Shown here: positions 5,485-58,339 of the stretch, in pieces
Numbering within the stretch: the first letter of the stretch is position 1
Layout: every line of letters starts with the position of its first letter
Made by a program: the position numbers and the translations under genes
IMG/VR virus record: IMGVR_UViG_3300044630_000814
Location: 1-63,724 of that record
Length of the DNA stretch: 63,724 nt
Strand: one strand, 5' to 3'
Source of the DNA: a virus
Taxonomy: Duplodnaviria; Caudoviricetes
The notes under the pieces: model-generated
The model's input: the letters and a program-made list of their open reading frames with translations, nothing else
What the model was told of the DNA's origin: nothing
The model's database searches: none

Positions 5485-5661
5485 ATGAATAAAGACGAAA
5501 TGTTTGGTGTAGTACGCGCCGTGCTAGCTGCAGTAGCTGGCTTTGTAGCTGGCCAAGGTCTCGTAGACTCTGAAACTGCTATGGCCGTTGCCGGTGCTGC
5601 AACCACAATCATCGTTGCCGTATGGTCTGTCCGTTCGAAGCGCGCTGCACCTGCGGAGTAA
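5485..5661 (+). CDS. Putative holin (2 TM)
   Basis: AAGGA RBS before ATG 5485; two hydrophobic helices and a basic C-terminus; follows the endolysin. Confidence 0.7.
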   Translation: MNKDEMFGVVRAVLAAVAGFVAGQGLVDSETAMAVAGAATTIIVAVWSVRSKRAAPAE

Positions 5662-5705
5662 TATTCGCCTAATACCCTAATCGCAGAAAGGAGGGAGGCT
5701 AAGTA

Positions 5706-32314: not shown

Positions 32315-33073
32315 TCATTTAAGATTGCCACCGCTCTGCAGGATGTCACCACCAAACACATACGTGCCTACATGGTGCAGCTTGATGAACGGGTGGGCGT
32401 GTATTTTGCCACCGTGGTTGCGCCACAGTTCGCAAAAATGGTAATCTTCGCTTAGCAATGCGCCACTGGCGTCTATGCTGGTAGCGAAAAACTCGTGGGT
32501 CAAAGGCTTGGCATACTCGCCTGTCACTGGGTCTTGGAACGATGATACGCGGTAGGTGGGTACGTGGGGTATAAGGTGCTCGAATACCCCCCGCTTGATG
32601 AGCATGAAGCCTGTGCCACCATGGCGGACCTCAATGCAGCCTGTCTCGTCGCTGTGCACATCTTCACCCCCGACCATGTTGAACACAAATGCTCCGGCAT
32701 GGTTCTCAAGGTCGGACTTACCTGCAAGTGCTGCACGGTTGACGCTATCCCAGTTCACTTCCTTCTTAGGGTAGATACCGCATGCGATGTCCTTGTCGGC
32801 CAGCAACAAGTGCGCGATGGCCTCACTGTCGAAACCAATGTCGGCGTCAATGAACATCAGATAGTCGTGGTCACTCTCAAGGAACACCCGTGCCAGTTCG
32901 TTACGCGCCCGTGTGATAAGGCTCTCGTTCATAATCTGACACCATGCCACATTGACGCCGATTTCCCGCATCTTGTTCATGGTCATCAACAAGCCTTGCA
33001 CATAGTGCCCCGTGCACATGCCCCCATACATGGGTGTGGCAATCATTAGGCTTGGGCGTTTTTCTTCAGTCAT
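32315..33073 (-). CDS. GT-A-fold glycosyltransferase-like protein (middle copy)
   Basis: IATPMYGG, SLITRARN, FIDADI (DxD), GTGFMLI, SEDYHFC, HVG. Confidence 0.75.
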   Translation of the reverse strand: MTEEKRPSLMIATPMYGGMCTGHYVQGLLMTMNKMREIGVNVAWCQIMNESLITRARNELARVFLESDHDYLMFIDADIGFDSEAIAHLLLADKDIACGIYPKKEVNWDSVNRAALAGKSDLENHAGAFVFNMVGGEDVHSDETGCIEVRHGGTGFMLIKRGVFEHLIPHVPTYRVSSFQDPVTGEYAKPLTHEFFATSIDASGALLSEDYHFCELWRNHGGKIHAHPFIKLHHVGTYVFGGDILQSGGNLK

Positions 33074-33425: not shown

Positions 33426-33941
33426 TTATCTACGTACTAATTTCTTCAACTTCCCAAGCGTTGACCCCAGTGTCGCGCCTGTGCTGCCGTTAGCTATAGG
33501 CAGACTGTTCGGAGACTGCCCCGCTATGTGTGTAACCCCTGCGCTCCGGTACATATCACGGTCCACGTCGTACACACCTAGCTGTCCCACGGCATTCTGA
33601 TACTGCTGCATTTGCTGCATTTGCTGCTGCATTGCTTGCTGCTTCGTAAGTAGCAGTGACTTTGAAAGGTTACGCTCGTACTCCTGCTCTTCAAATACCT
33701 TGCGGCGGCGCTCTTCACCGTTAAGCAACTCGTCCATCACCCGTTCGTGGGTTTCGGCCAGTCGGATTTCCCGTAAACCTTCGGCCATTGCAGCCTTGTC
33801 AGCCTCACTCCCAAAAGCCTGTATCGAATTTACGTGGTCATACCAGCGGTCGTGGAACGGTGCGTCTGCGACCCTAAACTCTTCGGGGTGGCTCTTCATC
33901 CGCTTGAGTAGCAGTGTTACTACCTCGTGTGGCTCACTCAT
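33426..33941 (-). CDS. Hypothetical protein, HPEEF family paralog 1
   Basis: VTLLLKRMKSHPEEF...RW...RVMDELL; paralog of 37583-37879. Confidence 0.75.
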   Translation of the reverse strand: MSEPHEVVTLLLKRMKSHPEEFRVADAPFHDRWYDHVNSIQAFGSEADKAAMAEGLREIRLAETHERVMDELLNGEERRRKVFEEQEYERNLSKSLLLTKQQAMQQQMQQMQQYQNAVGQLGVYDVDRDMYRSAGVTHIAGQSPNSLPIANGSTGATLGSTLGKLKKLVRR

Positions 33942-34339: not shown

Positions 34340-34547
34340 GGTCTGCTCCTTCTCTCTGCTTACGTGCCTCGTCAATACGGGCTTGCTGTGCTGCTCGGCG
34401 GCCTTCCCTACCTACAACCTGACGCGCTCGCTCACGGGTAAGCCCATACTTTCGCCCCAAGGCTGCGAACGTGGTTCCTTGCTCCTCGCGTTCCCTATGG
34501 ATTGCTAGGTCTCGCTCGGCATTAACCCTAACTCCTTTAACCGCCAT
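34329..34547 (-). CDS. Sigma70 region-4-like HTH protein
   Basis: GTTFAALGRKYGLTRERARQVV resembles sigma region 4.2 (TLEEVG..F.VTRERIRQIE). Confidence 0.7.
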   Translation of the reverse strand: MAVKGVRVNAERDLAIHREREEQGTTFAALGRKYGLTRERARQVVGREGRRAAQQARIDEARKQREGADHVG

Positions 34548-36354
34548 AACTTTCTCCTATGTGGCTTTCACAGTTTAATGGTAATCCTAACGCCCACTTG
34601 GGGCGTATACGCATGCAAATCTCTACGAACTCTTGGGCGCGTTCGGCTTCTTCTGTTGGGACAATGCAGCCCACAGCGTCATGCACCGTCATGACCACAC
34701 GATACTTACGGGCAATCATCAACATCTGTTCGCCAATCACGATACGAGCGAGAGCCTGACATACATTCTCGATGAGCTTCCCACCGTATATGCGGTTAGG
34801 TATAACCGCCTTACCTCTCTTCTGGTCGTAAATCATCTCTTGCTTGCCATCGGTAAACACCCACCGAAGGTTCGGATATTTGAGGTATAGCCCGTTGGGT
34901 AGTCGGATACCGTTGTATCCTTCAACCTGTACAACGCCAGCAAGCCCAAGGGGTGCTGTCTGGTTGTTAGCGATAGCGTCGAGCGCCTCGCCAGCCTCAC
35001 GCCACAACTCAGGGATTTTAGGGTAAGTCTCCCGATACACCCTGATGATGCGGTCGCATTCGCTTTGCGGTAGGTCCACACCCATTGACTTAAGCTGGAT
35101 GCGGAACTTTTTAGGCCCCATGCCATACCCTGCACCGAGGATTGTTGTCTTACCCACGAACCGCTGGTCCTTGGTCACAGCCTCGCGGTCAACGCCGTAT
35201 ATGGAGGATGCCATAATTTTATAAACGTCCTCGCCTTTCTCGAAGGCATCCACAAGGTCGTTCTGCCCTGCCAGCCACGCTAAGGTCCGCGCTTCAATCT
35301 GCGAGGAGTCGCTGTCCACAAACATATGGTTCGGAGGTGCGAGGATGCAGTCTTTGAGGGGTGAGTTGCGAGGTAGGTTCTGCATGTTAACCTTATCGTC
35401 GCCGCCCCAGCGCCCCGTGTGTGCTGCGTAGTAGCGTAGTGGGATGGGTAGTAGTCCCCGTGTCGCTATGCCCATGAACCGTTCGGTGCGTGTCTCTTCC
35501 AGCGTAGACTTTACCCCTAGCCGCGCAGCTACAAGCGCTTGAACCTGTGGGTCCTCATGCTCCAACAGTGCCTTGAACTCCTCGTCGCTCTTGGCGAACG
35601 CATAGGTCTCCTTGCCCGTGGTTGGGCTAATCTTCGTTGGGGGTGTTACACCTAAGTTTGTTAGTATCTCAGCAAACTTCGGGTTACTCATCAACTGTTC
35701 GCGGTCAGCGTTTATCTTTTCCATGAGCAACGCTTTGTCTTCACGCACTTTACCAAGATGCGTTACCAGTGAGTAGTAACCTACCTCCAGTGTAGGTTCA
35801 GTGAACATGCGTATCGTCAGGTCTATGAGCCGCAGTTCAGCCACAGGGAAGTCCACCGCAAGGCACTCGAAAAGCTTATAGGTAAGCTCCGTGTCGTTGA
35901 CACAATACTCTGCGTAGCGGGATAGCTCGTCTGACGTGAAGTCCAGTCGTCCTTTGCCAAGTGCGTTTACGACCTCGTTGCCTTTTACCCCTAGCTTATA
36001 GTGTTCGGCCAGTGCTTTTAGGCTTCCGCTCACCGACGTGCCGTGCTTGGCCCGTGCCATAGATAGCGTGTCCACTATGCGTTTGGGTCGGATGTCGAAC
36101 TGCCAGTTGAGGATAGCCATGTCGAACATGGCGTTGTGTGCCACGGCGGTCGCCTCGTCCCACGCAAACTGCGAAAGCCATTTTTGCGTAGCTTCCTTCG
36201 GACCGGAGAACCACTGGGCCGGTGCGTCGTTCACCTTTACAGATACGCCGATAGCCTCAAACAACTCATCGCGGATATACTCTTCGGTGGTAACCTTGGA
36301 GAGCGAGTAGGTCCGGTCGTAGTAAGTCTCGAAGTCGATGGTCAGGATGGTCAC
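34537..36354 (-). CDS. polA: DNA polymerase family A with 3'-5' exonuclease
   Basis: IDFET (ExoI), AHNAMFD, YCVND; TGRW, NMQNLP, DSSQIEAR (motif A), KTTILGAGYG (motif B), VHDA (motif C). Confidence 0.9.
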   Translation of the reverse strand: MTILTIDFETYYDRTYSLSKVTTEEYIRDELFEAIGVSVKVNDAPAQWFSGPKEATQKWLSQFAWDEATAVAHNAMFDMAILNWQFDIRPKRIVDTLSMARAKHGTSVSGSLKALAEHYKLGVKGNEVVNALGKGRLDFTSDELSRYAEYCVNDTELTYKLFECLAVDFPVAELRLIDLTIRMFTEPTLEVGYYSLVTHLGKVREDKALLMEKINADREQLMSNPKFAEILTNLGVTPPTKISPTTGKETYAFAKSDEEFKALLEHEDPQVQALVAARLGVKSTLEETRTERFMGIATRGLLPIPLRYYAAHTGRWGGDDKVNMQNLPRNSPLKDCILAPPNHMFVDSDSSQIEARTLAWLAGQNDLVDAFEKGEDVYKIMASSIYGVDREAVTKDQRFVGKTTILGAGYGMGPKKFRIQLKSMGVDLPQSECDRIIRVYRETYPKIPELWREAGEALDAIANNQTAPLGLAGVVQVEGYNGIRLPNGLYLKYPNLRWVFTDGKQEMIYDQKRGKAVIPNRIYGGKLIENVCQALARIVIGEQMLMIARKYRVVMTVHDAVGCIVPTEEAERAQEFVEICMRIRPKWALGLPLNCESHIGESYGG

Positions 36355-36571: not shown

Positions 36572-36649
36572 TTAAAATTTAATCTCATCGTCGGCCCAGT
36601 CGTAAATATCCCAGCCGAAATTATCGAACAGGAATTGGCGCAGGGTCAT
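36572..36649 (-). CDS. 25-aa acidic/aromatic peptide ending DDEIKF (not in ORF track)
   Basis: ATGA overlap with the upstream stop; MTLRQFLFDNFGWDIYDWADDEIKF exactly fills the gap to the next RBS. Confidence 0.55.
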   Translation of the reverse strand: MTLRQFLFDNFGWDIYDWADDEIKF

Positions 36650-36996
36650 TTGCTTTGTTCCAGTGCTGCGCGAGCAACATCACCAAAGTCGAGGCTATCA
36701 ATACCCCACGGACCAGTCATCAGTTCCTGTGCGTAATACTCCAAAGCATCCCGCAGCCGCTCAATCTCTGCCGCTTGGGCTTCGATGGTGGCATCGGTCT
36801 GGGCGCGGGTGTTCCATGCTGCGATTGCTTCGGCTTCCGTTTTAAGTTCTACGCTTGGTTGTGCGAGACAGTTATTCTCATCGGAGCAAAATATTAACCA
36901 GTAACCATAAGTGCTATCGCCGGACTTTGGCGGGTTCCCACAAAACGGGCATGGCAATAGCACAGCCTCGCGTTCCTGCTTTGCATCGTTCGTCAT
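36646..36996 (-). CDS. Lar-family (restriction alleviation-like) zinc-ribbon protein
   Basis: LLPCPFCG...C....C...EAIAAWNTRA followed by an EIERLR coiled coil. Confidence 0.7.
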   Translation of the reverse strand: MTNDAKQEREAVLLPCPFCGNPPKSGDSTYGYWLIFCSDENNCLAQPSVELKTEAEAIAAWNTRAQTDATIEAQAAEIERLRDALEYYAQELMTGPWGIDSLDFGDVARAALEQSK

Positions 36997-37367
36997 TGCC
37001 CCTTCTCCCGTATCTCAATCTCAAAACCAGAATTTTCCAATTTGGCGCGGATGTGGTGAGCATAACTTTCTGCGTGTTTTCGGCTTTCAAATCCCGACAA
37101 CACGCTTTCAATAGCATCCACCAGCGGGTCAGGCTTGGGCTTGGGGATGATGAAGCATTGCATATGCTCTGGTGCGTATTCTGCGTAATGGTATTCCGAC
37201 ACAATCGCATCGCTCACCTTTTGCTTAAAGGCTTCGTGTTGTTCGATGGCGCGGCATAGTGCTTCTATTTCAGGCTCGCTGCGATAGAGTTCAAAATAGG
37301 CTAGGTTGCCACGTTCATCTGCTACCTCATTCAGGAGCGCCAAGGCTTTTGCTTCAATGTCGGTCAC
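36993..37367 (-). CDS. Hypothetical protein
   Basis: Coupled overlaps on both sides; ALCRAIEQHEAFKQ motif. Confidence 0.65.
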   Translation of the reverse strand: MTDIEAKALALLNEVADERGNLAYFELYRSEPEIEALCRAIEQHEAFKQKVSDAIVSEYHYAEYAPEHMQCFIIPKPKPDPLVDAIESVLSGFESRKHAESYAHHIRAKLENSGFEIEIREKGQ

Positions 37368-37546
37368 AGCGCCCTCCCTATCTCAATGCCCTTGCGGATG
37401 CCTTGCTCGACCAGACGCATCCAGATGGTGTGGTCGTAATCACCAGCCAAGTAGTTCTGTGACGCCAAGCTATTTTCTTTCCATGCTTGCAGGGCGCAGA
37501 TTTCCCGTGCGGCCTCGCGGATTATCATGTCATCTTCGTTAGTCAT
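37364..37546 (-). CDS. Hypothetical protein
   Basis: AGGAG RBS; AREICA...YLAGDYD. Confidence 0.65.
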   Translation of the reverse strand: MTNEDDMIIREAAREICALQAWKENSLASQNYLAGDYDHTIWMRLVEQGIRKGIEIGRAL

Positions 37547-37582
37547 TCGCTTCTCCTATGATAGTAAGCACACCTAACAGGG

Positions 37583-37879
37583 TTAGGTGCTGCCATCGGT
37601 TAGCAGCGTAGCCATAACCCTGCGACTGAAGCTATCGCCTTGGATGCTCATATACTTATCGTAGAGTATGAGGATTTCACGGTCTGTCAGGAACCCAAGG
37701 GACTCGTGATGCAGCACTGGGTCCTCGTCCGGTGACTTGTTCATAAAGTCTATCCGTGTCTTGACCGCCCCCATTACCCACCTCCACTTTTCGCGGACAT
37801 GTTTGTCTGGGTTGTGGGTATTAAACTCTTCGGGATGAGTATCCATCCGTTGCAGCAAAAGCTCTACACCTTGGTTCAT
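37583..37879 (-). CDS. Hypothetical protein, HPEEF family paralog 2
   Basis: VELLLQRMDTHPEEF...KW...RRVMATLL. Confidence 0.75.
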   Translation of the reverse strand: MNQGVELLLQRMDTHPEEFNTHNPDKHVREKWRWVMGAVKTRIDFMNKSPDEDPVLHHESLGFLTDREILILYDKYMSIQGDSFSRRVMATLLTDGST

Positions 37880-38124
37880 ATGTTTGGCCCCATAAATTTT
37901 TTATATGCGTCCATCTCGTCGGGAGCGTCTGTGATTTTGACGGGGTTTGTGCCCTCGTCTCGCTCAAACCATGGCACGATTTTGGTAACTTTAAGTTCCC
38001 CAGTGTTGGAGTCATGTTCAGCGTAGACTGCCCATGTGTTTCCATACTCCTCATACTTCATACCAAACAGCTCGTTTAGGCCCGGAAGCAGTTCCTTGAG
38101 TAATTGGGCGCGACTGATAGCCAT
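37876..38124 (-). CDS. Small protein whose N-terminus copies the major capsid protein N-terminus
   Basis: MAISRAQLLKELLPGLNELFGMKYEEYG vs capsid MAISRAQLLKELLPGLNALFGLEYARYG (23/28 identical); GGAGG RBS. Confidence 0.85.
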   Translation of the reverse strand: MAISRAQLLKELLPGLNELFGMKYEEYGNTWAVYAEHDSNTGELKVTKIVPWFERDEGTNPVKITDAPDEMDAYKKFMGPNI

Positions 38125-38429
38125 CAGTGAACCTCCCCTTTTAATTTTTTAACAAGGTCAGGGAGCATGTCGTAGTTCGTCTCGTCTACTACTACAGCTA
38201 CGCCGTTAGACCGACGTATCGCTTCAATCTCGCGCACCTGTAGTGCCGTAGTCTTGCCGCCGTTTGCCTTGCACTCAACGGCAAGAAACCAGCCGTTCAC
38301 ACAGGCTACAATGTCGGGGACGCCACTACGTCCGAAGCCGTGGGTTGCGGGGGAAAAGAAATATACTTCATGTGCAGTGAAGATAGATTTTACCTTATCC
38401 TTCACTTTTTTCTCAGGCGTTGCTGCCAT
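38124..38429 (-). CDS. VRR-NUC / Holliday-junction-resolvase-like nuclease
   Basis: TPEKKVK...GVPDIV...AVECKA...TALQ; AAGGAGCAAAC RBS. Confidence 0.85.
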   Translation of the reverse strand: MAATPEKKVKDKVKSIFTAHEVYFFSPATHGFGRSGVPDIVACVNGWFLAVECKANGGKTTALQVREIEAIRRSNGVAVVVDETNYDMLPDLVKKLKGEVH

Positions 38430-38453
38430 GGTTTGCTCCTTGTTTGGCATCCC

Positions 38454-38481
38454 ACCATACACCATCGGTTTACAATGTCAA
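38454..38481 (-). promoter_or_regulatory. Sigma70-type middle promoter with near-palindromic operator over -35
   Basis: TTGACA-16-TATGGT; TTTACA-A-TGTCAA at 38469-38481. Confidence 0.6.
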
Positions 38482-38492
38482 ATGCTAAGGAT

Positions 38493-38520
38493 AAAAAAAG
38501 ACCGCCCCGAAAGGCGGTCT
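38493..38520 (-). terminator. Intrinsic terminator ending the early operon
   Basis: AGACCGCC-TTTCGG-GGCGGTCT stem-loop followed by a U-run on the minus strand. Confidence 0.85.
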
Positions 38521-38549
38521 AGTCTAACATAGTTAGGAGCAACTATATG

Positions 38550-38723
38550 TTATCTGTGTGTATCAGCGTAGTCCGCTAAGACTTCACGCATCTTAGCCGT
38601 GTAGCTAGGGTATGTTTTGTAATAGTCTAGCACCTCCGTTGGTATGCGTAGGTGTGTCAGGCTCATGGCCGGACGCTTGCCCAGCCCACGCTGCCCTCGG
38701 TATCGTTTTGGTTCTTCAGTCAT
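38550..38723 (-). CDS. Ribbon-helix-helix protein, BrnA-antitoxin-like (57 aa, not in ORF track)
   Basis: RGLGKRPAMSLTHLRIPTEVLDYYKTYPSYTAKMREVLADY; ATGA coupling to the upstream gene. Confidence 0.65.
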   Translation of the reverse strand: MTEEPKRYRGQRGLGKRPAMSLTHLRIPTEVLDYYKTYPSYTAKMREVLADYADTHR

Positions 38724-39589
38724 ACGGGTTCCTTATCCATAACAAAGAAGGCATGGTCGTTAAGTCGCACACCTACGTTGGGTATAATCCGACTACCCTC
38801 ATGTAGTTTGAGGAAGCCAAGGTTGCGGCGGATGTTGTCTGTCAGTTGTTCGCTGGACTTGACCTCTGTCTCTCGCTCGTCCCCGAAGCCGCGCACCATG
38901 ATGTAGTCGCTGCCTCGCGTGATTATAGTGAACCCTTCTCGGTTGCGATAGGCCAGTTCTACACCCTCCGCTTCGTTCCTAGCAGCGAGTCGCTCAGGCA
39001 TATCCTCTGGCACTGGTGCGCCCATTGCCTTTAGCGCAGGTGCTACCGCATCCCAGTTATTCATAACATACTGCGTGACAAACGGACTGATACGCCTGTA
39101 ACCCGCATCAAAATCTTTGTTAACGAGATGGGTGTTTCCGGATAGCTTAGTAGTTATGGCCTGTTCATATTCTATAATGCTCTCGTCTAGTGTCTTACCA
39201 TGGAAGGCTTTAAGTATGCTCTTCACTGCTAGGTCGAGCTTACTGGTTTTAGTCCATATACCCCGCTGGCGCTTATGGGCTAGCCTTGGGTTATCGAAGC
39301 GGTAGTATGTAACTGACCCCACACCAGCGCGATACCCAGACTCAATGGAGATTTCTCCTAACGACTGGCCGCTCTCGTAGATGTCAAAGTGGTGCGCCGT
39401 TACTGTTTCACCCGTTATATTTACGTTAGCGGATATTAGCGTCCATTGCGGGCGGTGCTTATGTAGCTCCTCTATTAAGGGTAGCGCCTTCTCGTGGACC
39501 ACGAACCGCGTATCAGGTTTTACGAAAGCAGGGTTGCGGCTGATGGACGCATGAGAGAAACCCTCGCATGGGTATAGTTGCTTAGTCAT
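38720..39589 (-). CDS. Hypothetical early protein
   Basis: AAGGAG RBS; 289 aa; C-terminal LGFLKL...VGVR...FFV. Confidence 0.75.
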   Translation of the reverse strand: MTKQLYPCEGFSHASISRNPAFVKPDTRFVVHEKALPLIEELHKHRPQWTLISANVNITGETVTAHHFDIYESGQSLGEISIESGYRAGVGSVTYYRFDNPRLAHKRQRGIWTKTSKLDLAVKSILKAFHGKTLDESIIEYEQAITTKLSGNTHLVNKDFDAGYRRISPFVTQYVMNNWDAVAPALKAMGAPVPEDMPERLAARNEAEGVELAYRNREGFTIITRGSDYIMVRGFGDERETEVKSSEQLTDNIRRNLGFLKLHEGSRIIPNVGVRLNDHAFFVMDKEPV

Positions 39590-39612
39590 TGTGATTACTC
39601 CTTCTCTATATC

Positions 39613-40455
39613 TTACCAATCAAAGCCCGAAAGGATTGTATCGAGCTTGCCCTTGACGTTGGTGCGGATGTCTTCGCTTTCCTTGAGGTCATCAATATCC
39701 AAGCCAATCAAAGCCGACTCCAGCTTGCGCCGCGCATCCTCTAGCTTGGGGTCGCCAGTGAGGTTGAGGTGAGTAAGCATCCCGCACATTTCCTGTGCGT
39801 TCGTAATGAAGGTGTCGTGCCAGCGGGTCTTTTCCTCTAGCCCTAGCTTAGTAGACATTGAGGTCAGCATCTTGTGCAGCTGCTCCCATGGGGTGCGCAT
39901 GGCTTCGTCAACACGGCTAACAAAATTATCATCATACTCCTTGCGTATGGCGTCGAGTTCTTGGTTGGGGATGTCCACACGGAAGTCACCCGACTCTGGC
40001 ACAGGGGAGAACACAAGGCGGAAGCCAAACTTGTCCATCACCTCATCCACGCTTGGGTAGTCCGCAGGGTCATGCAGGTCGCCCATGTGCTGCGCCGCAG
40101 TGGTCATCAGCTTGGGGTATTCGAGGCGAAACTTATCTACCAACTGCGTGAACGTATCACGTCGTGCGTTGGCCTCGGTCTTGTATGCCATGAAGAGGCT
40201 TGTGGGTAGCAGCCTAGCACCTCGGTCTGCCCAAGGTAATGTCCGACTGTTGTGCCATGTGCGGCACAGCGCAGCGAAGTCCGCTATGTCCTTGCGCAGG
40301 GTTGTGCCAGCCATGAGGTTCTTACGCACTTGGGCTGCATCGCTGGTCGCGTTGCTGTCAGCGGTCAGCTTGGTGGTGGTATCCTTGTCCAGCTTGTTGG
40401 CTGTCCAGACGGATATGTTCAGTTCGACAAGAACCGATGAAGATGTAATGCTCAT
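39613..40455 (-). CDS. Conserved early protein (DUF3150-like)
   Basis: LVELNISVWTANKLD...TLPWADRGARLLP...DYP; typically linked to MoxR/VWA genes. Confidence 0.65.
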   Translation of the reverse strand: MSITSSSVLVELNISVWTANKLDKDTTTKLTADSNATSDAAQVRKNLMAGTTLRKDIADFAALCRTWHNSRTLPWADRGARLLPTSLFMAYKTEANARRDTFTQLVDKFRLEYPKLMTTAAQHMGDLHDPADYPSVDEVMDKFGFRLVFSPVPESGDFRVDIPNQELDAIRKEYDDNFVSRVDEAMRTPWEQLHKMLTSMSTKLGLEEKTRWHDTFITNAQEMCGMLTHLNLTGDPKLEDARRKLESALIGLDIDDLKESEDIRTNVKGKLDTILSGFDW

Positions 40456-40773: not shown

Positions 40774-41982
40774 TTATCCTTTGATATGCACAGTTTTGCC
40801 AACTGGTGACACGATACGGCCTGAGCTGTAGCGATGCTCGGAGATTACCCACATGATAGGCGCACCCCAGTCGTCACCCCAGTCACCGACATACCCGTCA
40901 GTCAGCTGGATGATGCACTCTGGCTTGATGTTTTGTTCCTTGAGGTAGTGCATCATACAGGTTGGGTCAGTGCCGCCACCGCCCACTGGCTTGGTAGAGC
41001 TAACAAGGTTAGACATGGTTGCCATGTCATAGACCTCATGCCCTGCCACCGCTCCGTCCCAATAGATGAGGTCTATCTTGTCGGGATGCACCTCCTCGAC
41101 GATAGCCTTGACCTCGGACAGGAACACGCTGAGTTCGTCCGCACCGATAGAGCCGCTTGTGTCTACGCCGATAGCGATATGCCCGACCTTCTCCCCTACT
41201 AGCGTAGGGAGATATACGTCTTGGCTTAGCATGCGCCTGTTGACCCTGCGCCATGATGACGCATCCTTGGCATTGCAAGTAGCGGACACAAACTCACGCA
41301 GTGCTTCGCGCCAGTCTATCTGTGGTTGGAGCATGTCACCCAGCTCGCGGTTGACACCTAGCCCGCCTTTGCCCGCAGCTTTCATAGATGCTATCTGGCC
41401 TTGGCGTAGGGCTTGGTCCACCTCGCGTTCTAGTTCCTTGCGCTCGTCGGCAGTCATTTCCTTGGCCCCGTCCCAGTCATGCTCGTCGAACCCTTCGCCG
41501 CCTTGACCACCATCAGGGTTATCCTTCTTCTCCTGCTTGAGTATGTCGAAGACTTGCTTGGTGTTCATGCCTTTGAAGCGGGTGTCGTAACACGCCATCG
41601 GTGTGCCATCCTCGCGGCGAACCATAGCGATGACTTGCTCGTTCGGGTCCATCTCCATAATCATAAGGTTGATGACATGGTCCATTGCGATGTTGGCTAG
41701 GTGAGGGTCCTCTGCTCGGAGCTTCTGCCACGTTGTCATGTGACGTAAGCCCTTGTGCATGTTCTCGTGTAGCACGACGAAGCCCAGTTGCTTCTCGTCT
41801 AACTTTGTTATGAACTCCAAGCCGTATATCTCGTCACGCCCGTTGGTGCATGCCGTTGGCACGTCCTCGGCTACGCTGGTCTTGCCGACCATCATGATGC
41901 CAGACCACAACGCAAACATGGGGTTGCGCATCAGGTTAATCTTGACTTTCTTGAGCTTGCGCTCAGCTTTCTGCATATCCAT
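40774..41982 (-). CDS. Metallopeptidase-like + VWA domain protein (DUF2201-like)
   Basis: TACTNG, LHENMH (HExxH), NIAMD..IN, VDTSGS MIDAS, GGGGTD, LTDGY. Confidence 0.85.
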   Translation of the reverse strand: MDMQKAERKLKKVKINLMRNPMFALWSGIMMVGKTSVAEDVPTACTNGRDEIYGLEFITKLDEKQLGFVVLHENMHKGLRHMTTWQKLRAEDPHLANIAMDHVINLMIMEMDPNEQVIAMVRREDGTPMACYDTRFKGMNTKQVFDILKQEKKDNPDGGQGGEGFDEHDWDGAKEMTADERKELEREVDQALRQGQIASMKAAGKGGLGVNRELGDMLQPQIDWREALREFVSATCNAKDASSWRRVNRRMLSQDVYLPTLVGEKVGHIAIGVDTSGSIGADELSVFLSEVKAIVEEVHPDKIDLIYWDGAVAGHEVYDMATMSNLVSSTKPVGGGGTDPTCMMHYLKEQNIKPECIIQLTDGYVGDWGDDWGAPIMWVISEHRYSSGRIVSPVGKTVHIKG

Positions 41983-42004
41983 TAGTTTGCTCCTTGTGTT
42001 GGTA

Positions 42005-43072
42005 TCAAAGTAGGTCCTCGTTATCCCGCACCCAGTTAGCGAATGCAGCGGATGAAAACGCAACCGACTGGCGCTGCGGGTTCTTCGCAATGTTGATAGC
42101 GAAGCATGCTTGCCACTCTGGTTCGAAGCGGGACAGGTAGGTCATGAACGGCGTCATTGTCTCTTTAGTCACCTTCATGATTGCACCAAAGATAAGCACC
42201 GCACATGCTCCTGCTGACGTAGGGATAGCCGCATCATTCGGCTTGGATGTGATGTTCTCCCATGTGGGTAGCTGGTCTTGGTATGTGATGTAGGCTTGCA
42301 TGTCCCGCGCTGCTGCCTCACCGATTGTGCCTGATAGCGCAGCGGTAAGAGCGTTGGATGAAATCCGCTCACGATGCCTCACAATGTTAGATGCACGCGA
42401 CAAAGAGCGTGGGCTGACATAGGACTTCTGCATAGCCTTGGGGTTGTAGATATATGCGTTCTCGTTCTGCGTGCCGTCAGTGTATGAAGCCAGCGCATGC
42501 GGGAACTGCTTAACCCAAGCCATGACAACAGGCTCAACGTCATTGTTGATTGCCCACTCAAGCCACTGGTCGCTGTCAGGCTTGGCTACGCGCACTCTGG
42601 ATACTCTGTTAAGAGTATGGCCCTTGATAACATCGCCGACACCATCGCTCGACAAGTTAGATGTGAGGAACACGATTGAGTCTGGATGTAGCTCAATGTC
42701 GCCCAGTCGTGGGTTGTGTTCTTCGAGTAGCGGGTGAAGCATATTCTGCACAGGCGGCGGAGCCTTGGCAAACTCGTCAAGCATGATGACTGCTGGCTTG
42801 CCATGCTGCAACTGGAGCGCAGCATTGGGGAAATACTCTGTTACCCGTAGCTCTCGGTTGACGCTTGGCATGGCAATGTCACCCAAGTCCTTCTGCGCAC
42901 AGTCGAAGTAGGCATAGACGTAGCGGTCACCTAGCTTGGCCTTGAGCGCCTTCATGATGCTAGACTTACCAATCCCAGGTTCGCCTTCGAGCAGGAACCG
43001 ATTGTCGGGGATGGCTGCGATAAGCTCTGCGGCTTCGGCAAGTGAGATGTTTGAACCAAAATCAATAGACAT
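42005..43072 (-). CDS. MoxR-like AAA+ ATPase
   Basis: Walker A GEPGIGKS, Walker B MLDEF, sensor TSN, SPRS. Confidence 0.85.
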   Translation of the reverse strand: MSIDFGSNISLAEAAELIAAIPDNRFLLEGEPGIGKSSIMKALKAKLGDRYVYAYFDCAQKDLGDIAMPSVNRELRVTEYFPNAALQLQHGKPAVIMLDEFAKAPPPVQNMLHPLLEEHNPRLGDIELHPDSIVFLTSNLSSDGVGDVIKGHTLNRVSRVRVAKPDSDQWLEWAINNDVEPVVMAWVKQFPHALASYTDGTQNENAYIYNPKAMQKSYVSPRSLSRASNIVRHRERISSNALTAALSGTIGEAAARDMQAYITYQDQLPTWENITSKPNDAAIPTSAGACAVLIFGAIMKVTKETMTPFMTYLSRFEPEWQACFAINIAKNPQRQSVAFSSAAFANWVRDNEDLL

Positions 43073-44177: not shown

Positions 44178-44594
44178 TTAGGCTTGTGATTGAAACGATA
44201 TCTCGGTCGAGCGGTTCACGCCGACCACTGCATCTGCGTTGGTGCTCATCCTTATCTCGGTGTCTTGGTCTTCCTCGCCAAGGCGCACAAACTCCCATGC
44301 TATGTTGAACGCCGTGGGGTCGCCCGTCACTGCTTGCTCGTCTAGCAGTCGGTCGATGGCCTCGAACACTCTCTCCACCGCTTGCGGATGCTCGTAGTGC
44401 TCATACCACTTCACGTCGTTGTAATAGACGGAGATGCCTCGGCTCTCTGGGTCGTAGGTAATCCTCGCATCCCATTCGTTCGTGGCTTCCTTGACGGGGT
44501 AGTTCTCGTCGAACCATAGCTTGAGCAGCGGGTATGATGTCTCGCTGTCAACGGGTGCGTAGATAACTACGTCTACTTCTGAGCGATAGCCCAT
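44178..44594 (-). CDS. Acidic hypothetical early protein (MGYRS family)
   Basis: MGYRSEV...VKWY...FVRLGEE; GGAGG RBS. Confidence 0.75.
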   Translation of the reverse strand: MGYRSEVDVVIYAPVDSETSYPLLKLWFDENYPVKEATNEWDARITYDPESRGISVYYNDVKWYEHYEHPQAVERVFEAIDRLLDEQAVTGDPTAFNIAWEFVRLGEEDQDTEIRMSTNADAVVGVNRSTEISFQSQA

Positions 44595-53087: not shown

Positions 53088-53278
53088 CACATGAGTTACT
53101 GATGTACCTGTCAAAAAAGGTACAGGAGGAGATTGACGTGATGAGCGGCGATCTCGCCCGTGGGACCGCAAAAGACCATGGGGAATATAAATACGCCTGC
53201 GGGATTATCCGTGGGCTTATGACGGCAAACGGTTTCATTGCTGAAGCCGCACAAAGAATGGAACAAGACGATGACTGA
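53084..53278 (+). CDS. Small conserved head-module protein
   Basis: L..G.AKD..EYKYACG.IRGL; AAGGAG RBS. Confidence 0.7.
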   Translation: MTHELLMYLSKKVQEEIDVMSGDLARGTAKDHGEYKYACGIIRGLMTANGFIAEAAQRMEQDDD

Positions 53279-53705
53279 TATTGTTGGGGTCACCACCCCC
53301 TCGTTAGTGGGCCTCAATGGCAAACCCATTGTGGCAAAGGACAAAGAACCGGAAGTTCCGGTAGAAGATCGCGCAAAGCAGCTTCCAGACCCATCCGGCT
53401 ATCGCATTCTGTGCGCTATCCCAGAAGTCGAAGAGAAGACCGCTGGCGGTATTTTCAAGGCCGACTCGACCAAGCAGTTTGAAGAACTCACTACCCCAGT
53501 ACTTATGGTGCTGAAGATGGGTCCAGATTGCTACAAGGACGAGAAACGCTTCCCATCTGGCCCATGGTGCAAGGAAGGTGACTTCATCCTTACTCGCCCA
53601 CATGCCGGTAGCCGTGTGAAAATCCATGGTCGTGAGTTCCGCATCATCAACGACGACAGCGTAGAAGGCATCGTTGAAGACCCTCGGGGCATTTCCCGCG
53701 CTTAA
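53271..53705 (+). CDS. GroES/Cpn10-like co-chaperonin
   Basis: PSGYRIL...EEKTAGGIF...GP...GD.IL...G..VKI.GREFRIINDD. Confidence 0.8.
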   Translation: MTDIVGVTTPSLVGLNGKPIVAKDKEPEVPVEDRAKQLPDPSGYRILCAIPEVEEKTAGGIFKADSTKQFEELTTPVLMVLKMGPDCYKDEKRFPSGPWCKEGDFILTRPHAGSRVKIHGREFRIINDDSVEGIVEDPRGISRA

Positions 53706-53735: not shown

Positions 53736-54686
53736 ATGAGTATGCAGAATGATGATTTCGACGATTTTTCGTTCGAGGTCGAAGATGAAACCCCCGTTTC
53801 TGGGGCTGAGAAGCCCGAAATCGAAATAGAAGATGATACTCCCGAGGCAGACCGTGGGCGTGAGCCTATGCCCAAGGAGCTTGTCGAAGAGTTGGAAGCT
53901 GATGAGCTTGAAGACTATTCCGACAAGGTAAAGACCCGTCTGAAGCAGATGAAGAAGGTCTGGCACGACGAGCGTCGTGAAAAAGAACGCGAAATGCGGG
54001 AAAAGACCGAAGCTTTGTCTGCAGCCCAACGGTTACTTGAGGAAAACCGCAAGTTAAAGGCTACCCTTTCCGAGGGCGAGCAAACACTGGTTGGTAGCTT
54101 CAAGCAGGCCGCTGAATACGAGCTTGCACAGGCCAAACGTGAGTATAAGGATGCTTACGAAGCCGGTGATACTGATCGCGTCCTAGACGCACAGCAGAAG
54201 CTCAGTGAGGCACAGTACAAGATACAACAACTCGCAGGTTATCGTCCTACTTTACAAGAGGAATATAATGAGGTAGGAATACCACAACAGCAGGTCCAAA
54301 TTCCGCAACCTGACCAGAAAACTATGGCGTGGCAAGAGCGCAATACGTGGTGGGGTACTGATCCGGAAATGACCGCAGCTGCTCTTGGGCTTCATCAGAG
54401 GCTCATAAATGAACGTGGCCCGCAGTTTGCAGGTACCGACGAATATTGGGGCGTCATAGACAAAACTATGCGTCGTCGCTTCTCCGATTACTTCGGGGAT
54501 GAAATGGATAATGGTGACACCAGACCCACTGCACGCGAACAAAAAGCGTCATCGGTCGTCGCTCCAGCCTCACGAACACGGTCCCCCAAAAAGATTGTGT
54601 TGAAACAGTCCCAATTGGCAATTGCAAAACGTCTAGGCTTAACGCCCGAACAGTATGCCCGTGAACTAGTGAAGATGGAGAAATAA
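53736..54686 (+). CDS. Putative capsid scaffolding protein
   Basis: Acidic N-terminus, long coiled coil, C-terminal IAKRLGLTPEQYA; upstream of the capsid gene. Confidence 0.7.
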   Translation: MSMQNDDFDDFSFEVEDETPVSGAEKPEIEIEDDTPEADRGREPMPKELVEELEADELEDYSDKVKTRLKQMKKVWHDERREKEREMREKTEALSAAQRLLEENRKLKATLSEGEQTLVGSFKQAAEYELAQAKREYKDAYEAGDTDRVLDAQQKLSEAQYKIQQLAGYRPTLQEEYNEVGIPQQQVQIPQPDQKTMAWQERNTWWGTDPEMTAAALGLHQRLINERGPQFAGTDEYWGVIDKTMRRRFSDYFGDEMDNGDTRPTAREQKASSVVAPASRTRSPKKIVLKQSQLAIAKRLGLTPEQYARELVKMEK

Positions 54687-55810: not shown

Positions 55811-56722
55811 ATGGCAATTTCACGCGCACAACTTCTTAAAGAACTGTTGCCCGGACTGAACGCTTTGTTCGGCCTTGAGTATGCACGTTACGGCGAAGAG
55901 CACAAAGAAATCTACGAAACGGAAACTTCTGAACGTTCGTTCGAAGAAGAAACGAAGCTTTCTGGTTTCTCGGCTGCTCCAGTCAAGAACGAAGGTTCGG
56001 CCATCGCGTACGACAACGCACAGGAAGTCTTCACTGCTCGCTACAACCACGAAACGATTGCCCTCGGGTTCTCGCTCACGGAAGAAGCGATTGAAGATAA
56101 CTTGTACGACTCCTTGTCGTCGCGTTACACAAAGGCATTGGCTCGCGCCATGTCCTACACCAAGCAAACTAAAGCTGCTGCAGTCTTGAACAACGGCTTC
56201 GACACCGATTATACCGGTGGTGACGGCCAACCATTGTTCTCGGCTTCGCACCCATTGGTTTCTGGTGGCACGAACTCGAACATCCCAAGCACTCCTGCTG
56301 ATTTGAACGAAACGTCGCTTGAAGCGGCTGTAATTCAGATCGCAGCGTGGACGGATGAACGTGGCCTTCTCATCGCGGCTAAACCGCGTAAGCTGGTAGT
56401 TCCGCCAAGCCTGATGTTCGTTGCTACTCGCTTGCTCGAAACCGAACTCCGCGTTTCGACAGCTGACAACGACATCAACGCTCTGAAGTCAAACGGCTCG
56501 ATCCCAGAAGGATACGCCGTAAACCACTTCTTGACCGACACTGACGCGTGGTTCTTGACCACCGACGTGCCAAACGGTCTGAAGCACTTTGTTCGTACGC
56601 CAATGGCGACGGGCATGGACGGTGACTTCGATACTGGTAACGTACGTTACAAGGCTCGTGAGCGTTATTCGTTCGGCTGGTCAGACCCTCTGGGTATGTA
56701 CGGCAGCGAAGGCGCAGCCTAA
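55811..56722 (+). CDS. Major capsid protein (HK97 fold, Mu gpT-like family)
   Basis: MAISRAQLLKELLPGL, EG.AI.YD, TEEAIEDNLY, LVVPP.L, ARERYSFGWSDP; strong codon bias; followed by a terminator. Confidence 0.9.
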   Translation: MAISRAQLLKELLPGLNALFGLEYARYGEEHKEIYETETSERSFEEETKLSGFSAAPVKNEGSAIAYDNAQEVFTARYNHETIALGFSLTEEAIEDNLYDSLSSRYTKALARAMSYTKQTKAAAVLNNGFDTDYTGGDGQPLFSASHPLVSGGTNSNIPSTPADLNETSLEAAVIQIAAWTDERGLLIAAKPRKLVVPPSLMFVATRLLETELRVSTADNDINALKSNGSIPEGYAVNHFLTDTDAWFLTTDVPNGLKHFVRTPMATGMDGDFDTGNVRYKARERYSFGWSDPLGMYGSEGAA

Positions 56723-57601: not shown

Positions 57602-58339
57602 ATGCAGCAGGAACAAAGCTACGATTTAGCTGGTAAGAGCGTCTTCATCGCTCTTCCAGCGTACGACTTCAAGGTGTCCTTGAAGCTAGCTGTTTCTCTC
57701 GCACGTTTTGCTCAGCAAGCTGCGCAGCACGGAATTGAACTTCACATCGGCAGCATATGCGGGTGTTCGGTTGTTTCTCGTGCGCGCAACCTGCTGGCGC
57801 AAGACCTACTTGAGTCAAAGTGCGACTACCTAATGTTCATCGACTCGGACATTAATTTCGAGCCGCAAGATGTGTTCCGCCTTATGGCGTGGGGCACCGA
57901 CCCTAAGAAGGGTATTGTAGCTGCCGTGCCCCGTACGCGCAGCGAAACCAAAAACTATATTGCTACTCTCGACCACGACGAGAATAACCAGCTCACTATG
58001 AACAATATGGGTCTGGTCCGGGCTAAGCGTGTAGCTACAGCATTTATGCTGGTACGCCGCGAAGTGTTCGAGCAGATGTCTGCAGCCCACCCAGAGTGGA
58101 GCTACTACGACACGCGGTCTGACCGCATGCTAAACGCTATGTTTGATTTCCTTGTTACCGACGAAGGTTATATCGGAGAGGACTTCCTCTTCTGCGACCG
58201 GGCACGGGAACTCGGTTTTGAAGTGTGGGTAGACCCCACAATCACATTGGGCCACATGGGCGTACAGGAATATGTCGGTAACTACGGCGATGACATTCTT
58301 TATCCAATGATTGTCCCCACACAGAAGGAAGCAGCATAA
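57602..58339 (+). CDS. GT-A-fold glycosyltransferase-like protein (late copy)
   Basis: IALPAYD, SVVSRARN, FIDSDI (DxD), ATAFMLV, GEDFLFC, HMG. Confidence 0.75.
   Translation: MQQEQSYDLAGKSVFIALPAYDFKVSLKLAVSLARFAQQAAQHGIELHIGSICGCSVVSRARNLLAQDLLESKCDYLMFIDSDINFEPQDVFRLMAWGTDPKKGIVAAVPRTRSETKNYIATLDHDENNQLTMNNMGLVRAKRVATAFMLVRREVFEQMSAAHPEWSYYDTRSDRMLNAMFDFLVTDEGYIGEDFLFCDRARELGFEVWVDPTITLGHMGVQEYVGNYGDDILYPMIVPTQKEAA

What the first reader, a model, noticed from the sequence alone, without database searches (positions are those of the whole stretch)
37876..38124. Middle-operon mini-protein that copies the phage's own major capsid N-terminus (candidate capsid decoy)
Seen: the first 28 aa are 23/28 identical to the MCP at 55811, and the first 17 are 17/17 identical. 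Yet 11 of those 17 codons differ synonymously (e.g. TCA/AGT Ser, CTT/TTA Leu). The remaining ~54 aa are unrelated to the capsid. The gene has its own GGAGG RBS and sits on the opposite strand about 18 kb away, in the replication operon, so it would be made before capsid. Known: major capsid proteins trigger bacterial defences (CapRel-SJ46 binds capsid; the T4 Gol peptide of gp23 activates Lit). Inference: the peptide is under protein-level selection. It could act as a decoy that pre-saturates a capsid-sensing defence, as a dominant-negative timer of head assembly, or as an address tag that inserts a cargo domain into procapsids.
Basis: partly seen in the sequence, partly recalled or inferred. 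Interest (0 to 1): 0.88.

Follow-up and report, generated by a model that had tools for sequence, protein, structure and literature searches.

The report
Small phage proteins wearing capsid's N-terminus
An 82-residue gene in a freshwater phage's DNA-replication operon starts with the same ~25 amino acids as the phage's own major capsid protein, and related phages put that peptide on about a dozen unrelated small proteins, so it looks like a portable docking tag, probably for the head-assembly machinery.

Summary
ORF 37876-38124(-) shares 23/28 N-terminal residues with the capsid protein (MCP) at 55811 (17/17 at the start). Eleven of those 17 codons differ, so the identity is held at protein level.

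It is not a one-off. About 30 protein clusters have the same architecture: tag 87% identical, "cargo" 46%. The same tag heads at least 10 other unrelated small proteins. Every one whose neighbourhood I read lies among early or replication genes, not in the head module.

Tags on small proteins differ systematically from MCP N-termini (Q7 to E/D, A18 to E), which makes them more acidic.

Against obligatory self-mimicry:
- Two relatives with 95-97% identical MCPs carry the orthologous gene with quite different N-termini.
- About 36 of 44 cargo clusters (at 50% identity) lack the tag.
- Five cultured relatives have no tagged gene.
- Some untagged N-termini resemble the N-arms of other MCP lineages.

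Best reading (confidence about 0.4): the tag is the MCP N-arm, reused as a docking peptide for the N-arm's partner. By analogy with 80alpha, SPP1 and P22 that partner is the scaffolding protein. The closest analogue is the T4/P1 capsid-targeting sequence. Assembly interference, a defence decoy and a plain structural helix are not excluded. No binding, virion or expression data exist.

The parts
37876..38124 (-). Mini-protein gene, 82 aa plus stop: N-terminal MCP-like tag followed by a small beta-beta-beta-alpha cargo domain
   Evidence: AF2 model from a 34-row alignment: pLDDT 82; H5-19, H24-28, E31-37, E44-51, E62-64, H70-78.
38053..38124 (-). Tag: codons 1-24 (MAISRAQLLKELLPGLNELFGMKY), the conserved portable module
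   Evidence: Within the 30 tagged family members, residues 1-6, 8, 12-14, 16, 17 and 20 are invariant.
37879..38034 (-). Cargo domain (W31-I82). It belongs to a large, diverse family of small phage proteins with no known fold or family
   Evidence: No Pfam or PHROG match. Foldseek against pdb and BFVD gave no hit at E<=0.001. VIA-align wide gave a best Z of 3.6.
38132..38136 (-). GGAGG ribosome-binding site, 7 nt upstream of the ATG
   Evidence: Read.
38124..38465 (-). Upstream gene: VRR-NUC/Hjc-like nuclease, 113 aa. Its TGA overlaps the mini-gene ATG (TGATG)
37583..37879 (-). Downstream gene, 98 aa, with the N-terminal 'ELLLQRMDTHPEEF' motif. Its ATG overlaps the mini-gene stop (ATGA)
38454..38520 (-). 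Terminator-like hairpin (38520-38499) followed by a sigma-70-like promoter match (38481-38454, TTGACA-16-TATGGT). This is a possible start of the transcription unit nuclease - mini - 98 aa
   Evidence: These are consensus matches only: 6 promoter-like sites were found against 3.6 expected.
55811..56722 (+). Major capsid protein, 303 aa, Mu gpT-like. Residues 1-28 (55811-55894) are the copied N-terminus
53736..54686 (+). Candidate scaffolding protein, 316 aa: acidic N-terminus, coiled-coil-like middle, conserved basic C-terminal helix-turn-helix-like end (net +7 over the last 45 aa). It is the inferred partner of the N-arm
   Evidence: Position in the head module and phrog_28737. Conservation across 43 homologues. 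Charge. The scaffold role is inferred, not shown.
53238..53705 (+). Phage GroES/Cpn10-like co-chaperonin in the head module, an alternative candidate pathway for the MCP N-terminus
   Evidence: Pfam Cpn10 1.5e-5 and phrog_3188 1.3e-12. Annotated GroES in all 5 cultured relatives that I inspected.
34537..36354 (-). DNA polymerase A, defining the replication arm downstream of the mini gene

Best explanation
The first ~24 residues of the mini-protein are the N-arm helix of the phage's HK97-fold (Mu gpT-like) major capsid protein, reused as a portable N-terminal docking peptide. Both the capsid protein and the small proteins keep the same residues while their synonymous sites are saturated, so both are probably held by the same binding partner.

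By analogy with solved procapsids, that partner is most likely the C-terminal, basic, helix-turn-helix-like end of the scaffolding protein (window 53736-54686). The tag would then bring small accessory 'cargo' domains, made from the replication operon, to scaffold and procapsids, so that they are co-encapsidated or act at the assembling head. This resembles the T4 internal-protein and P1 DarB capsid-targeting sequences.

Shown here: the identity, protein-level purifying selection, a conserved gene family, portability of the tag onto many cargos, and systematic acidic substitutions in the tags.

Inferred: that residues 1-28 are the N-arm, that the partner is the scaffold, that the cargo enters procapsids or virions, and the timing of expression.
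For: 1. Identity at protein level only: 23/28 residues, 11/17 codons differ, pS 0.83-0.92. The window's own MCP ranks 82nd of 95 in nucleotide identity to the tag, so this is not recent copying.

2. Conserved family: 30 tagged members, counting the window. Tag identity is 87% against 46% for the cargo. Against 5 relatives, tag pN is 0.07-0.15 and cargo pN 0.32-0.34.

3. Portability. A DNA pattern for LLPGLNELFG hit 24 viral loci: 10 MCP genes and 14 small non-MCP genes of 6 cargo kinds. The same pattern hit 31 metagenome loci: 6 MCPs, 1 ambiguous, 6 chance hits and 18 small tagged genes (some are the same contigs as the viral loci). The representative search added more cargo kinds.

4. The small-protein tags are a lineage of their own. 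MCPs have Q7 in 95/95 and Ser4 as TCN in 94/95. The small proteins have E/D7 in 15/19 and Ser4 as AGY in 8/19. E18 occurs in 28/30 family members against A18 in 85/95 MCPs. Net charge over residues 1-24 is -2 or -1 in 18/19 small proteins, against 0 in 79/95 MCPs. The scaffold's C-terminal 45 aa carry +7.

5. Literature (passages read). The 80alpha scaffold C-terminal helix binds the capsid N-arm helix, and SaPI1 CpmB competes there (PMC5644958). The SPP1 scaffold binds the MCP N-terminal helix, 'similar to other phages' (PMC6813328). [quoted passage not shown] The first 30 residues of P1 DarB suffice for capsid targeting (PMC9024508).

6. Natural populations: contigs from three further studies cover the gene. 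Only one difference is listed inside it, and that one is synonymous. The table was cut, with 231 differences not shown.
Against: 1. Two relatives with a 97% (G005, complete) and 95% (G011, 87% complete) identical MCP carry the orthologous gene at the same slot upstream of DNA polymerase, with N-termini unlike their MCP. Exact self-mimicry is therefore dispensable for this cargo.

2. At 50% clustering, only 5 canonical-tag and 3 near-tag clusters stand against about 36 cargo clusters with other N-termini.

3. Five cultured relatives carry the tag pattern only at the MCP. The cargo was not found in 10 complete GenBank relatives.

4. All tagged genes whose context I read lie in the early/replication arm, not with the late head genes. 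That is not where most virion-protein genes sit.

5. The cargo is acidic, unlike DNA-associated internal proteins (my reading of the sequence).

6. There is no structural evidence that residues 1-28 form an N-arm. The MCP model failed at pLDDT 36.8, and PDB searches by sequence and by profile found nothing.

7. E18 in the pattern-derived sets is forced by the pattern itself.
Confidence: 0.4

Rival explanations
1. Assembly competitor. The tag occupies the MCP N-arm's binding site, on the scaffold or on neighbouring capsomers, and acts as a dominant-negative. It would either delay the phage's own head assembly until late MCP swamps it (a timer), or poison the assembly of co-infecting relatives and competitors.
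For: The gene sits in the replication arm, ahead of DNA polymerase. A relative, HTVC027P, shows early, middle (replication) and late (morphogenesis) transcription classes (PMC12753301, passages). Some untagged family members resemble N-arms of other MCP lineages. P0148 and P0177 score 55-57 against Caulobacter GB2A/ctpbd312-type MCPs, where the maximum among 1008 background N-termini is 36-39 (BLASTP E 1e-5). P0148 sits in a genome (G011) whose own MCP is the canonical type, which would suit a weapon aimed at a different phage. SaPI1 CpmB and SaPIbov5 Ccm are precedents for interference by mimicry of capsid-assembly parts (PMC5644958 passages; PMC8569155 abstract only).
Against: The window's tag matches its own, nearly invariant MCP N-terminus, so it would hit the phage itself as hard as any relative. 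A pure competitor needs no folded cargo, yet cargos are conserved and diverse. I chose the pairs resembling other MCP types after the fact, from 360 comparisons. Their own genomes were not available, except for G011.
Confidence: 0.2
2. Intrinsic helix with no capsid-related role. The ~25-residue N-terminal amphipathic helix is a structural or oligomerisation element of these small proteins. In one sub-lineage it was replaced by, or descends from, the MCP 5' end through recombination, and it is conserved for reasons internal to the small proteins.
For: Nearly all of the roughly 45 cargo clusters have an alignable N-terminal helix that starts MA[IV][SP] and has hydrophobic residues at about positions 3, 8, 12, 16, 20 and 24, whatever their similarity to the MCP. 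G005 and G011 keep the gene without MCP identity. AF2 models the tag as a helix within the same chain.
Against: This does not explain why the invariant residues of the tag are the same ones that are invariant in 95 MCPs. It also does not explain why the same 24 residues are kept on at least 10 unrelated cargos, including predicted coiled-coil and 54-aa proteins. Tag identity of 87% with saturated synonymous sites exceeds what a generic amphipathic helix needs.
Confidence: 0.2
3. Decoy or blocker for a host defence that senses the MCP N-terminus. Made early, it would pre-occupy the sensor.
For: Capsid proteins are known triggers of defence systems (recalled: CapRel-SJ46, Lit/Gol; only search listings seen). 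The gene has an early-arm position, evolves fast and is swapped between relatives, as is typical of counter-defence genes.
Against: No host and no defence system is known for this uncultured phage. A peptide that binds a sensor as the trigger does would be expected to activate it rather than block it. A decoy needs no diverse folded cargos. Relatives with the same MCP lack the tag.
Confidence: 0.1
4. Minor capsid component docked through the N-arm. The tag fills N-arm sites left vacant in the lattice, for example around the portal vertex where a penton is missing, and displays the cargo there. This would resemble the portal-vertex protein PVP of phage P74-26.
For: P74-26 PVP has a globular domain plus an N-arm that joins the MCP P-domain sheet at the portal aperture (PMC12407722, passages). 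SPP1 N-arms pair antiparallel across capsomers (PMC6813328).
Against: The gene is not in the head module. No structure or proteome exists, and the gene is dispensable in close relatives.
Confidence: 0.07

Closest known systems
T4 internal proteins (IPI/II/III) with their capsid-targeting sequence (CTS), and the N-terminal CTS of P1 DarB
   Same: A short conserved N-terminal peptide heads otherwise unrelated, fast-evolving small or accessory proteins. In T4 and P1 the peptide alone suffices to load cargo into the prohead (PMC3012670; PMC9024508).
   Different: The T4 and P1 signals are not copies of the capsid protein's own N-terminus (recalled, not tested here). T4's CTS is cleaved by the prohead protease, and I found no protease gene here. 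Encapsidation of the present proteins is untested, and their genes lie in the replication arm.
SaPI1 CpmB, which mimics the 80alpha scaffold C-terminus, and the SaPIbov5/PICI Ccm capsid-protein homologue
   Same: Mimicry of one partner in the scaffold-capsid N-arm interface lets another protein be inserted into the assembly pathway (PMC5644958).
   Different: In those cases a satellite mimics the scaffold side or the whole capsid protein in order to resize capsids. Here the phage itself carries a mimic of the capsid side (the N-arm only), fused to small unrelated domains.
Encapsulin cargo-loading peptides and engineered P22 scaffold-fusion cargo (recalled)
   Same: A short terminal peptide addresses varied cargos to the interior of an HK97-fold shell.
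   Different: Those peptides bind the shell protein or are pieces of the scaffold. They are not copies of the shell protein's own N-arm.
P74-26 portal-vertex protein (PVP)
   Same: A small globular domain plus an N-arm that docks onto the MCP lattice (PMC12407722).
   Different: No sequence relation was tested. I do not know whether the PVP arm copies the MCP arm, and PVP is a proven virion component.

Membership tests
Capsid-targeting-sequence cargo proteins (T4 IP / P1 DarB kind) | A short conserved N-terminal peptide shared by otherwise unrelated proteins of one phage group | tested here: met
   The tag occurs on the WAVYA-type cargo and on at least 10 other cargo kinds. Tag identity is 87% against 46% for the cargo.
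Capsid-targeting-sequence cargo proteins (T4 IP / P1 DarB kind) | The peptide is sufficient or necessary to load the protein into proheads or virions | not testable with these tools
   This needs virion proteomics or reporter fusions. The phage is uncultured.
Capsid-targeting-sequence cargo proteins (T4 IP / P1 DarB kind) | Binding to the scaffolding core | tested here: inconclusive
   One co-fold job (scaffold 190-316 with the mini-protein) returned no verdict. It counts neither for nor against.
Major capsid protein, Mu gpT-like / HK97 fold (is the mini-protein a capsid-protein fragment?) | Homology beyond the N-arm, covering the P and A domains | tested here: not met
   BLASTP similarity ends at residue 28. 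The mini-protein has no Pfam or PHROG hit. Its 54-residue cargo is predicted as beta3-alpha.
Frameshifted or truncated MCP gene (artefact) | Downstream sequence is MCP read out of frame, or the ORF ends at a contig edge | tested here: not met
   The gene is 17.7 kb from the MCP on the other strand, with its own RBS and conserved cargo homologues. Many database hits are indeed such fragments, and I set them aside.
Known anti-defence or defence families | A match to a curated family | not tested
   The PADLOC and NCBIfam libraries were not searched. Pfam and PHROGs gave nothing.

The most novel reading that the evidence does not exclude
An abundant clade of aquatic podophages has turned the scaffold-binding N-arm of its own capsid protein into a natural, modular capsid-addressing tag. 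Any small early protein that acquires these ~24 residues by recombination is loaded into procapsids and delivered with the DNA into the next host, giving a swappable arsenal of pre-made effectors. Family members that carry N-arms of foreign MCP lineages may instead target the heads of competing phages.
Probability: 0.2. Interest if true: 0.85.

Novelty: new variant of a known kind. Interest (0 to 1): 0.7.

Why it matters
If the tag is a docking peptide copied from the capsid protein's own scaffold-binding arm, three things follow.
- It would be a new evolutionary route to capsid targeting or assembly control: self-mimicry rather than a dedicated signal.
- It would define a ready-made ~24-residue tag for loading proteins into the heads of a globally abundant phage group. 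[quoted passage not shown]
- It would give a handle on about a dozen families of small 'dark-matter' early proteins.

Independently of mechanism, it is a clean case of a 24-residue module kept near-invariant on unrelated genes while synonymous sites are saturated.

I found no description of such a capsid N-arm copy in full-text searches. One search for 'Pag-Yong1' returned no paper. Subscription-only literature and supplements were not searched.

Tried and rejected
Co-fold of scaffold residues 190-316 (alignment A3) with the mini-protein (A2): score 0.01 twice, 'no answer'. This is not evidence either way.

AF2 model of the MCP from a 25-row alignment: pLDDT 36.8, unusable. The N-arm assignment therefore rests on position and analogy.

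PDB searches:
- Sequence searches with the MCP and the scaffold, and a profile search with the MCP alignment, found nothing usable.
- Fold searches with the mini-protein model found no hit at E<=0.001 in pdb or BFVD. The best VIA-wide Z was 3.6, to ribosome-associated chains, which I treat as no match.
- The ESM Atlas search with the cargo gave no usable hit.

GenBank phages:
- No DNA match to the locus.
- No tblastn match to the mini-protein, P0123 or P0143 better than E of about 2.
- Profile A5 found no cargo in 10 complete relatives.

Alternative N-termini (P0004, P0003, the G005 type) against all held loci gave nothing significant.

Pairing non-canonical mini-proteins with their own MCPs mostly failed. 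P0177 and P0129 are not in IMG/VR. A6 found only the three known contigs and nothing in bacterial genomes. The four metagenome records are not held for whole-record search.

Expression: no RNA holder is listed for the locus. The runs I laid are DNA contigs only.

Rejected ideas:
- Recent duplication or gene conversion from the resident MCP.
- Capture of the MCP translation-initiation region for expression. The upstream sequences differ and conservation is at the amino-acid level.
- A truncated MCP pseudogene.

Supplementary files of papers were not consulted. Table S3 of PMC12753301 (temporal classes of HTVC027P genes) might bear on timing.
Full report
WHAT IS THERE

The window is a complete 63.7-kb uncultured virus record. 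Its plus-strand arm holds the structural genes: terminase at 48790, portal, a GroES-like gene at 53238, a scaffold-like gene at 53736, two small head-module genes, the MCP at 55811, then tail and internal proteins.

Its minus-strand arm (47.2 to 24.3 kb) holds the early and replication genes: an AAA/VWA pair, DNA polymerase A at 34537-36354, a PD-(D/E)XK nuclease, an SNF2 helicase and DUF927.

The MCP is Mu gpT-like. It is 74% identical to that of Planktothrix phage Pag-Yong1 and Synechococcus phage MinM2, 63-66% to the HTVC023P-type pelagiphages, and 58-59% to the roseophages CRP-901 and CRP-902.

The finding's ORF (37876-38124, minus strand, 82 aa) lies between a VRR-NUC/Hjc-like nuclease gene and a 98-aa gene. 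Its start overlaps the stop of the first gene and its stop overlaps the start of the second. It has a GGAGG 7 nt upstream. A terminator-like hairpin and a TTGACA-16-TATGGT match lie just upstream of the nuclease gene (consensus matches only).

- 23/28 residues are identical, 17/17 at the start.
- 11 of those 17 codons differ.
- The synonymous proportion is 0.83-0.92, which is saturated.
- The resident MCP is among the least similar of 95 MCP 5' ends at nucleotide level: 82nd, 68% against a best of 79%.
- Only these two copies exist in the window.

IT IS A CONSERVED FAMILY

A search of 5.8 billion clustered proteins returned 478 hits at E<=0.01, with the best 120 listed. I fetched 56 of them.

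- 29 have the same architecture. With the window that makes 30 aligned members.
- Over those 30, tag residues 1-24 average 87% pairwise identity and the cargo 46%.
- Against five relatives for which I held DNA, the window's tag shows pS 0.65-0.71 and pN 0.07-0.15. The cargo shows pS 0.72-0.85 and pN 0.32-0.34.
- Most other hits are truncated or frameshifted MCP fragments and were set aside.
- All 80 viral loci fetched with the whole protein were MCP genes, 73 full-length and 7 cut by contig ends. Their N-terminus, MAISRAQLLKELLPGLNALFG, is almost invariant.

THE TAG IS PORTABLE

I used a degenerate DNA pattern for LLPGLNELFG. It forces E at position 18.

In IMG/VR it hit 24 loci:
- 10 MCP genes of a clade that itself has E18
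- 3 genes of the present family
- 4 genes of a 67-aa '...PPENHTQGS' family
- 4 genes of a short helical '...DDLKKAEEL' family
- 1 gene of a 158-aa protein
- 1 gene open at a contig end
- 1 protein in which a tag-like segment follows an HTH domain

In metagenome contigs it hit 31 loci. Some of these contigs duplicate IMG/VR ones.
- 6 MCP genes
- 1 ambiguous
- 6 chance matches
- 18 small tagged genes, which add a 54-76-aa 'GGNxYVHG' family, an 80-aa protein (L142) and L151

A profile search of 1.84 billion representatives gave 318 hits at E<=1e-3, with 150 listed. It added:
- an 'IVEVDF' family
- P0165, which resembles P0077
- P0244, which resembles L142
- P0252
- P0243, a tag placed in front of a homologue of the window's early gene at 44178-44594

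None of the 8 tagged cargo proteins scanned, 7 of them with other cargos and none from the additions, reached a Pfam cut-off or matched a PHROG beyond a weak hit.

Wherever I read the context, the tagged gene sits in the early/replication arm, but at different slots:
- upstream of DNA polymerase (the window, L084-L086)
- between the PD-(D/E)XK nuclease and a 93-aa gene downstream of the polymerase (L093, L094, L104-L106, L108, L111, L114)
- after the VWA-like gene (L112)
- beside a likely phosphoesterase gene (named from its N-terminal sequence, not scanned) in a different phage type (L109)

THE TAGS ARE NOT SIMPLY THE MCP N-TERMINUS

- Position 7 was not constrained by the search pattern. It is Q in 95/95 MCPs but E or D in 15/19 small proteins.
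- Ser4 is TCN in 94/95 MCPs but AGY in 8/19 small proteins, across several cargo kinds.
- Ile3 is ATT in 86/95 MCPs but ATA or ATC in 18/19 small proteins.
- In the 30-member set, whose search pattern did not force it, E18 occurs in 28/30 against A18 in 85/95 MCPs.
- Net charge over residues 1-24 is 0 in 79/95 MCPs, and -2 or -1 in 18/19 small proteins. The last 45 residues of the scaffold-like protein carry +7.

This suggests either a common origin of the tags, spreading from one small gene to another, or convergent tuning toward a more acidic peptide. I interpret it as tuning for a basic partner. That is inference.

EVIDENCE AGAINST OBLIGATORY SELF-MIMICRY

The cargo family is much larger than its tagged part. 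At 50% clustering I count 5 canonical-tag clusters, 3 near-tag clusters and about 36 with other N-termini. Nearly all of the others still have a ~25-residue helix that starts MA[IV][SP] and shows a similar hydrophobic periodicity.

The closest relatives of the window's cargo (83-91% identical) include four clusters with an unrelated N-terminus that looks HeH-like to me (my reading, untested).

Two phages carry the orthologue at the same slot with N-termini unlike their MCP, and nothing else in G011 matches that N-terminus:
- G005: complete genome, MCP 97% identical
- G011: 87% complete, MCP 95% identical

Five cultured relatives have the tag pattern only at the MCP.

A TWIST

Several non-canonical N-termini resemble the N-arms of other gpT-like MCP lineages. 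I compared each against 1008 background ORF N-termini.

| Mini-protein | MCP type it resembles | Score | Background maximum |
|---|---|---|---|
| P0177, P0148 | Caulobacter phage GB2A / ctpbd312 | 55-57 | 36-39 |
| P0129 | ct7L0027 | 42 | 29 |
| P0128 | ctpbd312 | 37 | 30 |

P0177 against the GB2A MCP also gives BLASTP E 1e-5 over residues 1-27 of both.

P0135 (the G005 type), P0143, P0161 and P0134 are not significant.

I picked these pairs from 360 comparisons. Apart from G011, where the N-terminus does not match the resident MCP, their genomes could not be recovered. So family-wide resemblance to MCP N-arms is suggestive, while in-genome co-variation is not shown. The tally is two matches (the window, and G009 with another cargo) and two mismatches (G005, G011).

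MECHANISM

The same residues are invariant in the MCPs and in the tags, on unrelated cargos, with saturated synonymous sites. The simplest reading is that the tag and the MCP N-terminus share a binding partner. I put that at about 0.75-0.8.

Which partner is inferred. In 80alpha, SPP1 and, those papers say, other phages, the scaffold's C-terminal helix binds the MCP N-terminal helix in the procapsid. Here the scaffold-like protein is only 37% conserved overall across 43 homologues, yet it keeps a basic C-terminal helix-turn-helix-like end.

[quoted passage not shown] I therefore favour a docking or addressing peptide (0.4).

The rivals are:
- assembly interference or a timer (0.2)
- an intrinsic helix with no capsid role (0.2)
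- a defence decoy (0.1)
- a PVP-like lattice filler (0.07)

The head module also encodes a GroES-like protein, so a chaperonin-related role for the shared N-terminus cannot be excluded.

My one co-fold job gave no verdict, and the MCP model failed.

POPULATION DATA

Near-identical DNA of the locus occurs in lake, river, estuary, aquaculture and drinking-water metagenomes from 12 studies, leaving out the possible source. Contigs from three of them cover 37542-39700 with 29-30 differences. Only one difference is listed inside the gene (37900 T>C, which is synonymous by my reading), though the table of differences was cut. A fourth run holds a variant about 92% identical. No RNA data were available.

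NOVELTY AND VERDICT

This is a family, and the tag is modular.

The kind of system, an N-terminal addressing or docking peptide for phage heads with mimicry at the scaffold-capsid interface, is known. A copy of the capsid protein's own N-arm used as the portable module, on small early-operon proteins, is something I could not find described. I rate it a new variant of a known kind, interest 0.7. Function remains untested, and there is real counter-evidence against a strict requirement for self-mimicry.

Noticed in passing
window 37583-37879 (-) and 33426-33941 (-); also L084, L085, L087: A second shared N-terminal module. The 98-aa gene just downstream of the mini gene and a 171-aa gene both begin with a '...ELLL.RM.SHPEEF' motif (52% identity over 25 residues) and then diverge. 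Relatives carry two or three such paralogues near the DNA polymerase gene.
   Followed up: partly
window 53238-53705 (+): A phage-encoded GroES/Cpn10-like co-chaperonin sits between portal and scaffold. It is annotated in all five cultured relatives that I inspected. This recalls T4 gp31 and suggests chaperonin-dependent MCP folding.
   Followed up: partly
window 36645-37541: A contig from run X11 joins 36644 to 37542 and so lacks 897 bp holding small genes between the 98-aa gene and the polymerase region. The stretch is a variable insertion among near-identical relatives.
   Followed up: no
window 32315-33073 (-) and 57602-58339 (+): Two full-length paralogues (28% identity over about 240 residues, E 7e-21), one in the replication arm and one in the structural arm. 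The first has only a weak, sub-threshold Pfam Anp1 match.
   Followed up: no
window 40774-43072 (-): A MoxR-like AAA_5 ATPase lies next to a DUF2201 metallopeptidase/VWA-like protein in the early arm. In G009 a tagged gene follows this pair directly.
   Followed up: no
proteins P0222, P0255, P0243: Database proteins in which the MCP N-terminus is joined to the C-terminal part of the 158-aa head-module protein (P0222), to a GroES-like C-terminus (P0255), or to the start of an early gene (P0243). They may be assembly chimeras or real recombinants. I could not tell which.
   Followed up: no
L087 (G005) 1873-2312 and 5633-5914: Several other 70-95-aa ORFs in the same arm end in a similar 'D-E-L-x-A-[FYM]' helix after short beta-like segments. 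This hints at a wider superfamily of small beta/alpha early proteins.
   Followed up: no
window 17255-24202 (+): A 2315-aa ORF sits at the end of the structural arm. It is presumably an internal or ejection protein, and I did not examine it.
   Followed up: no
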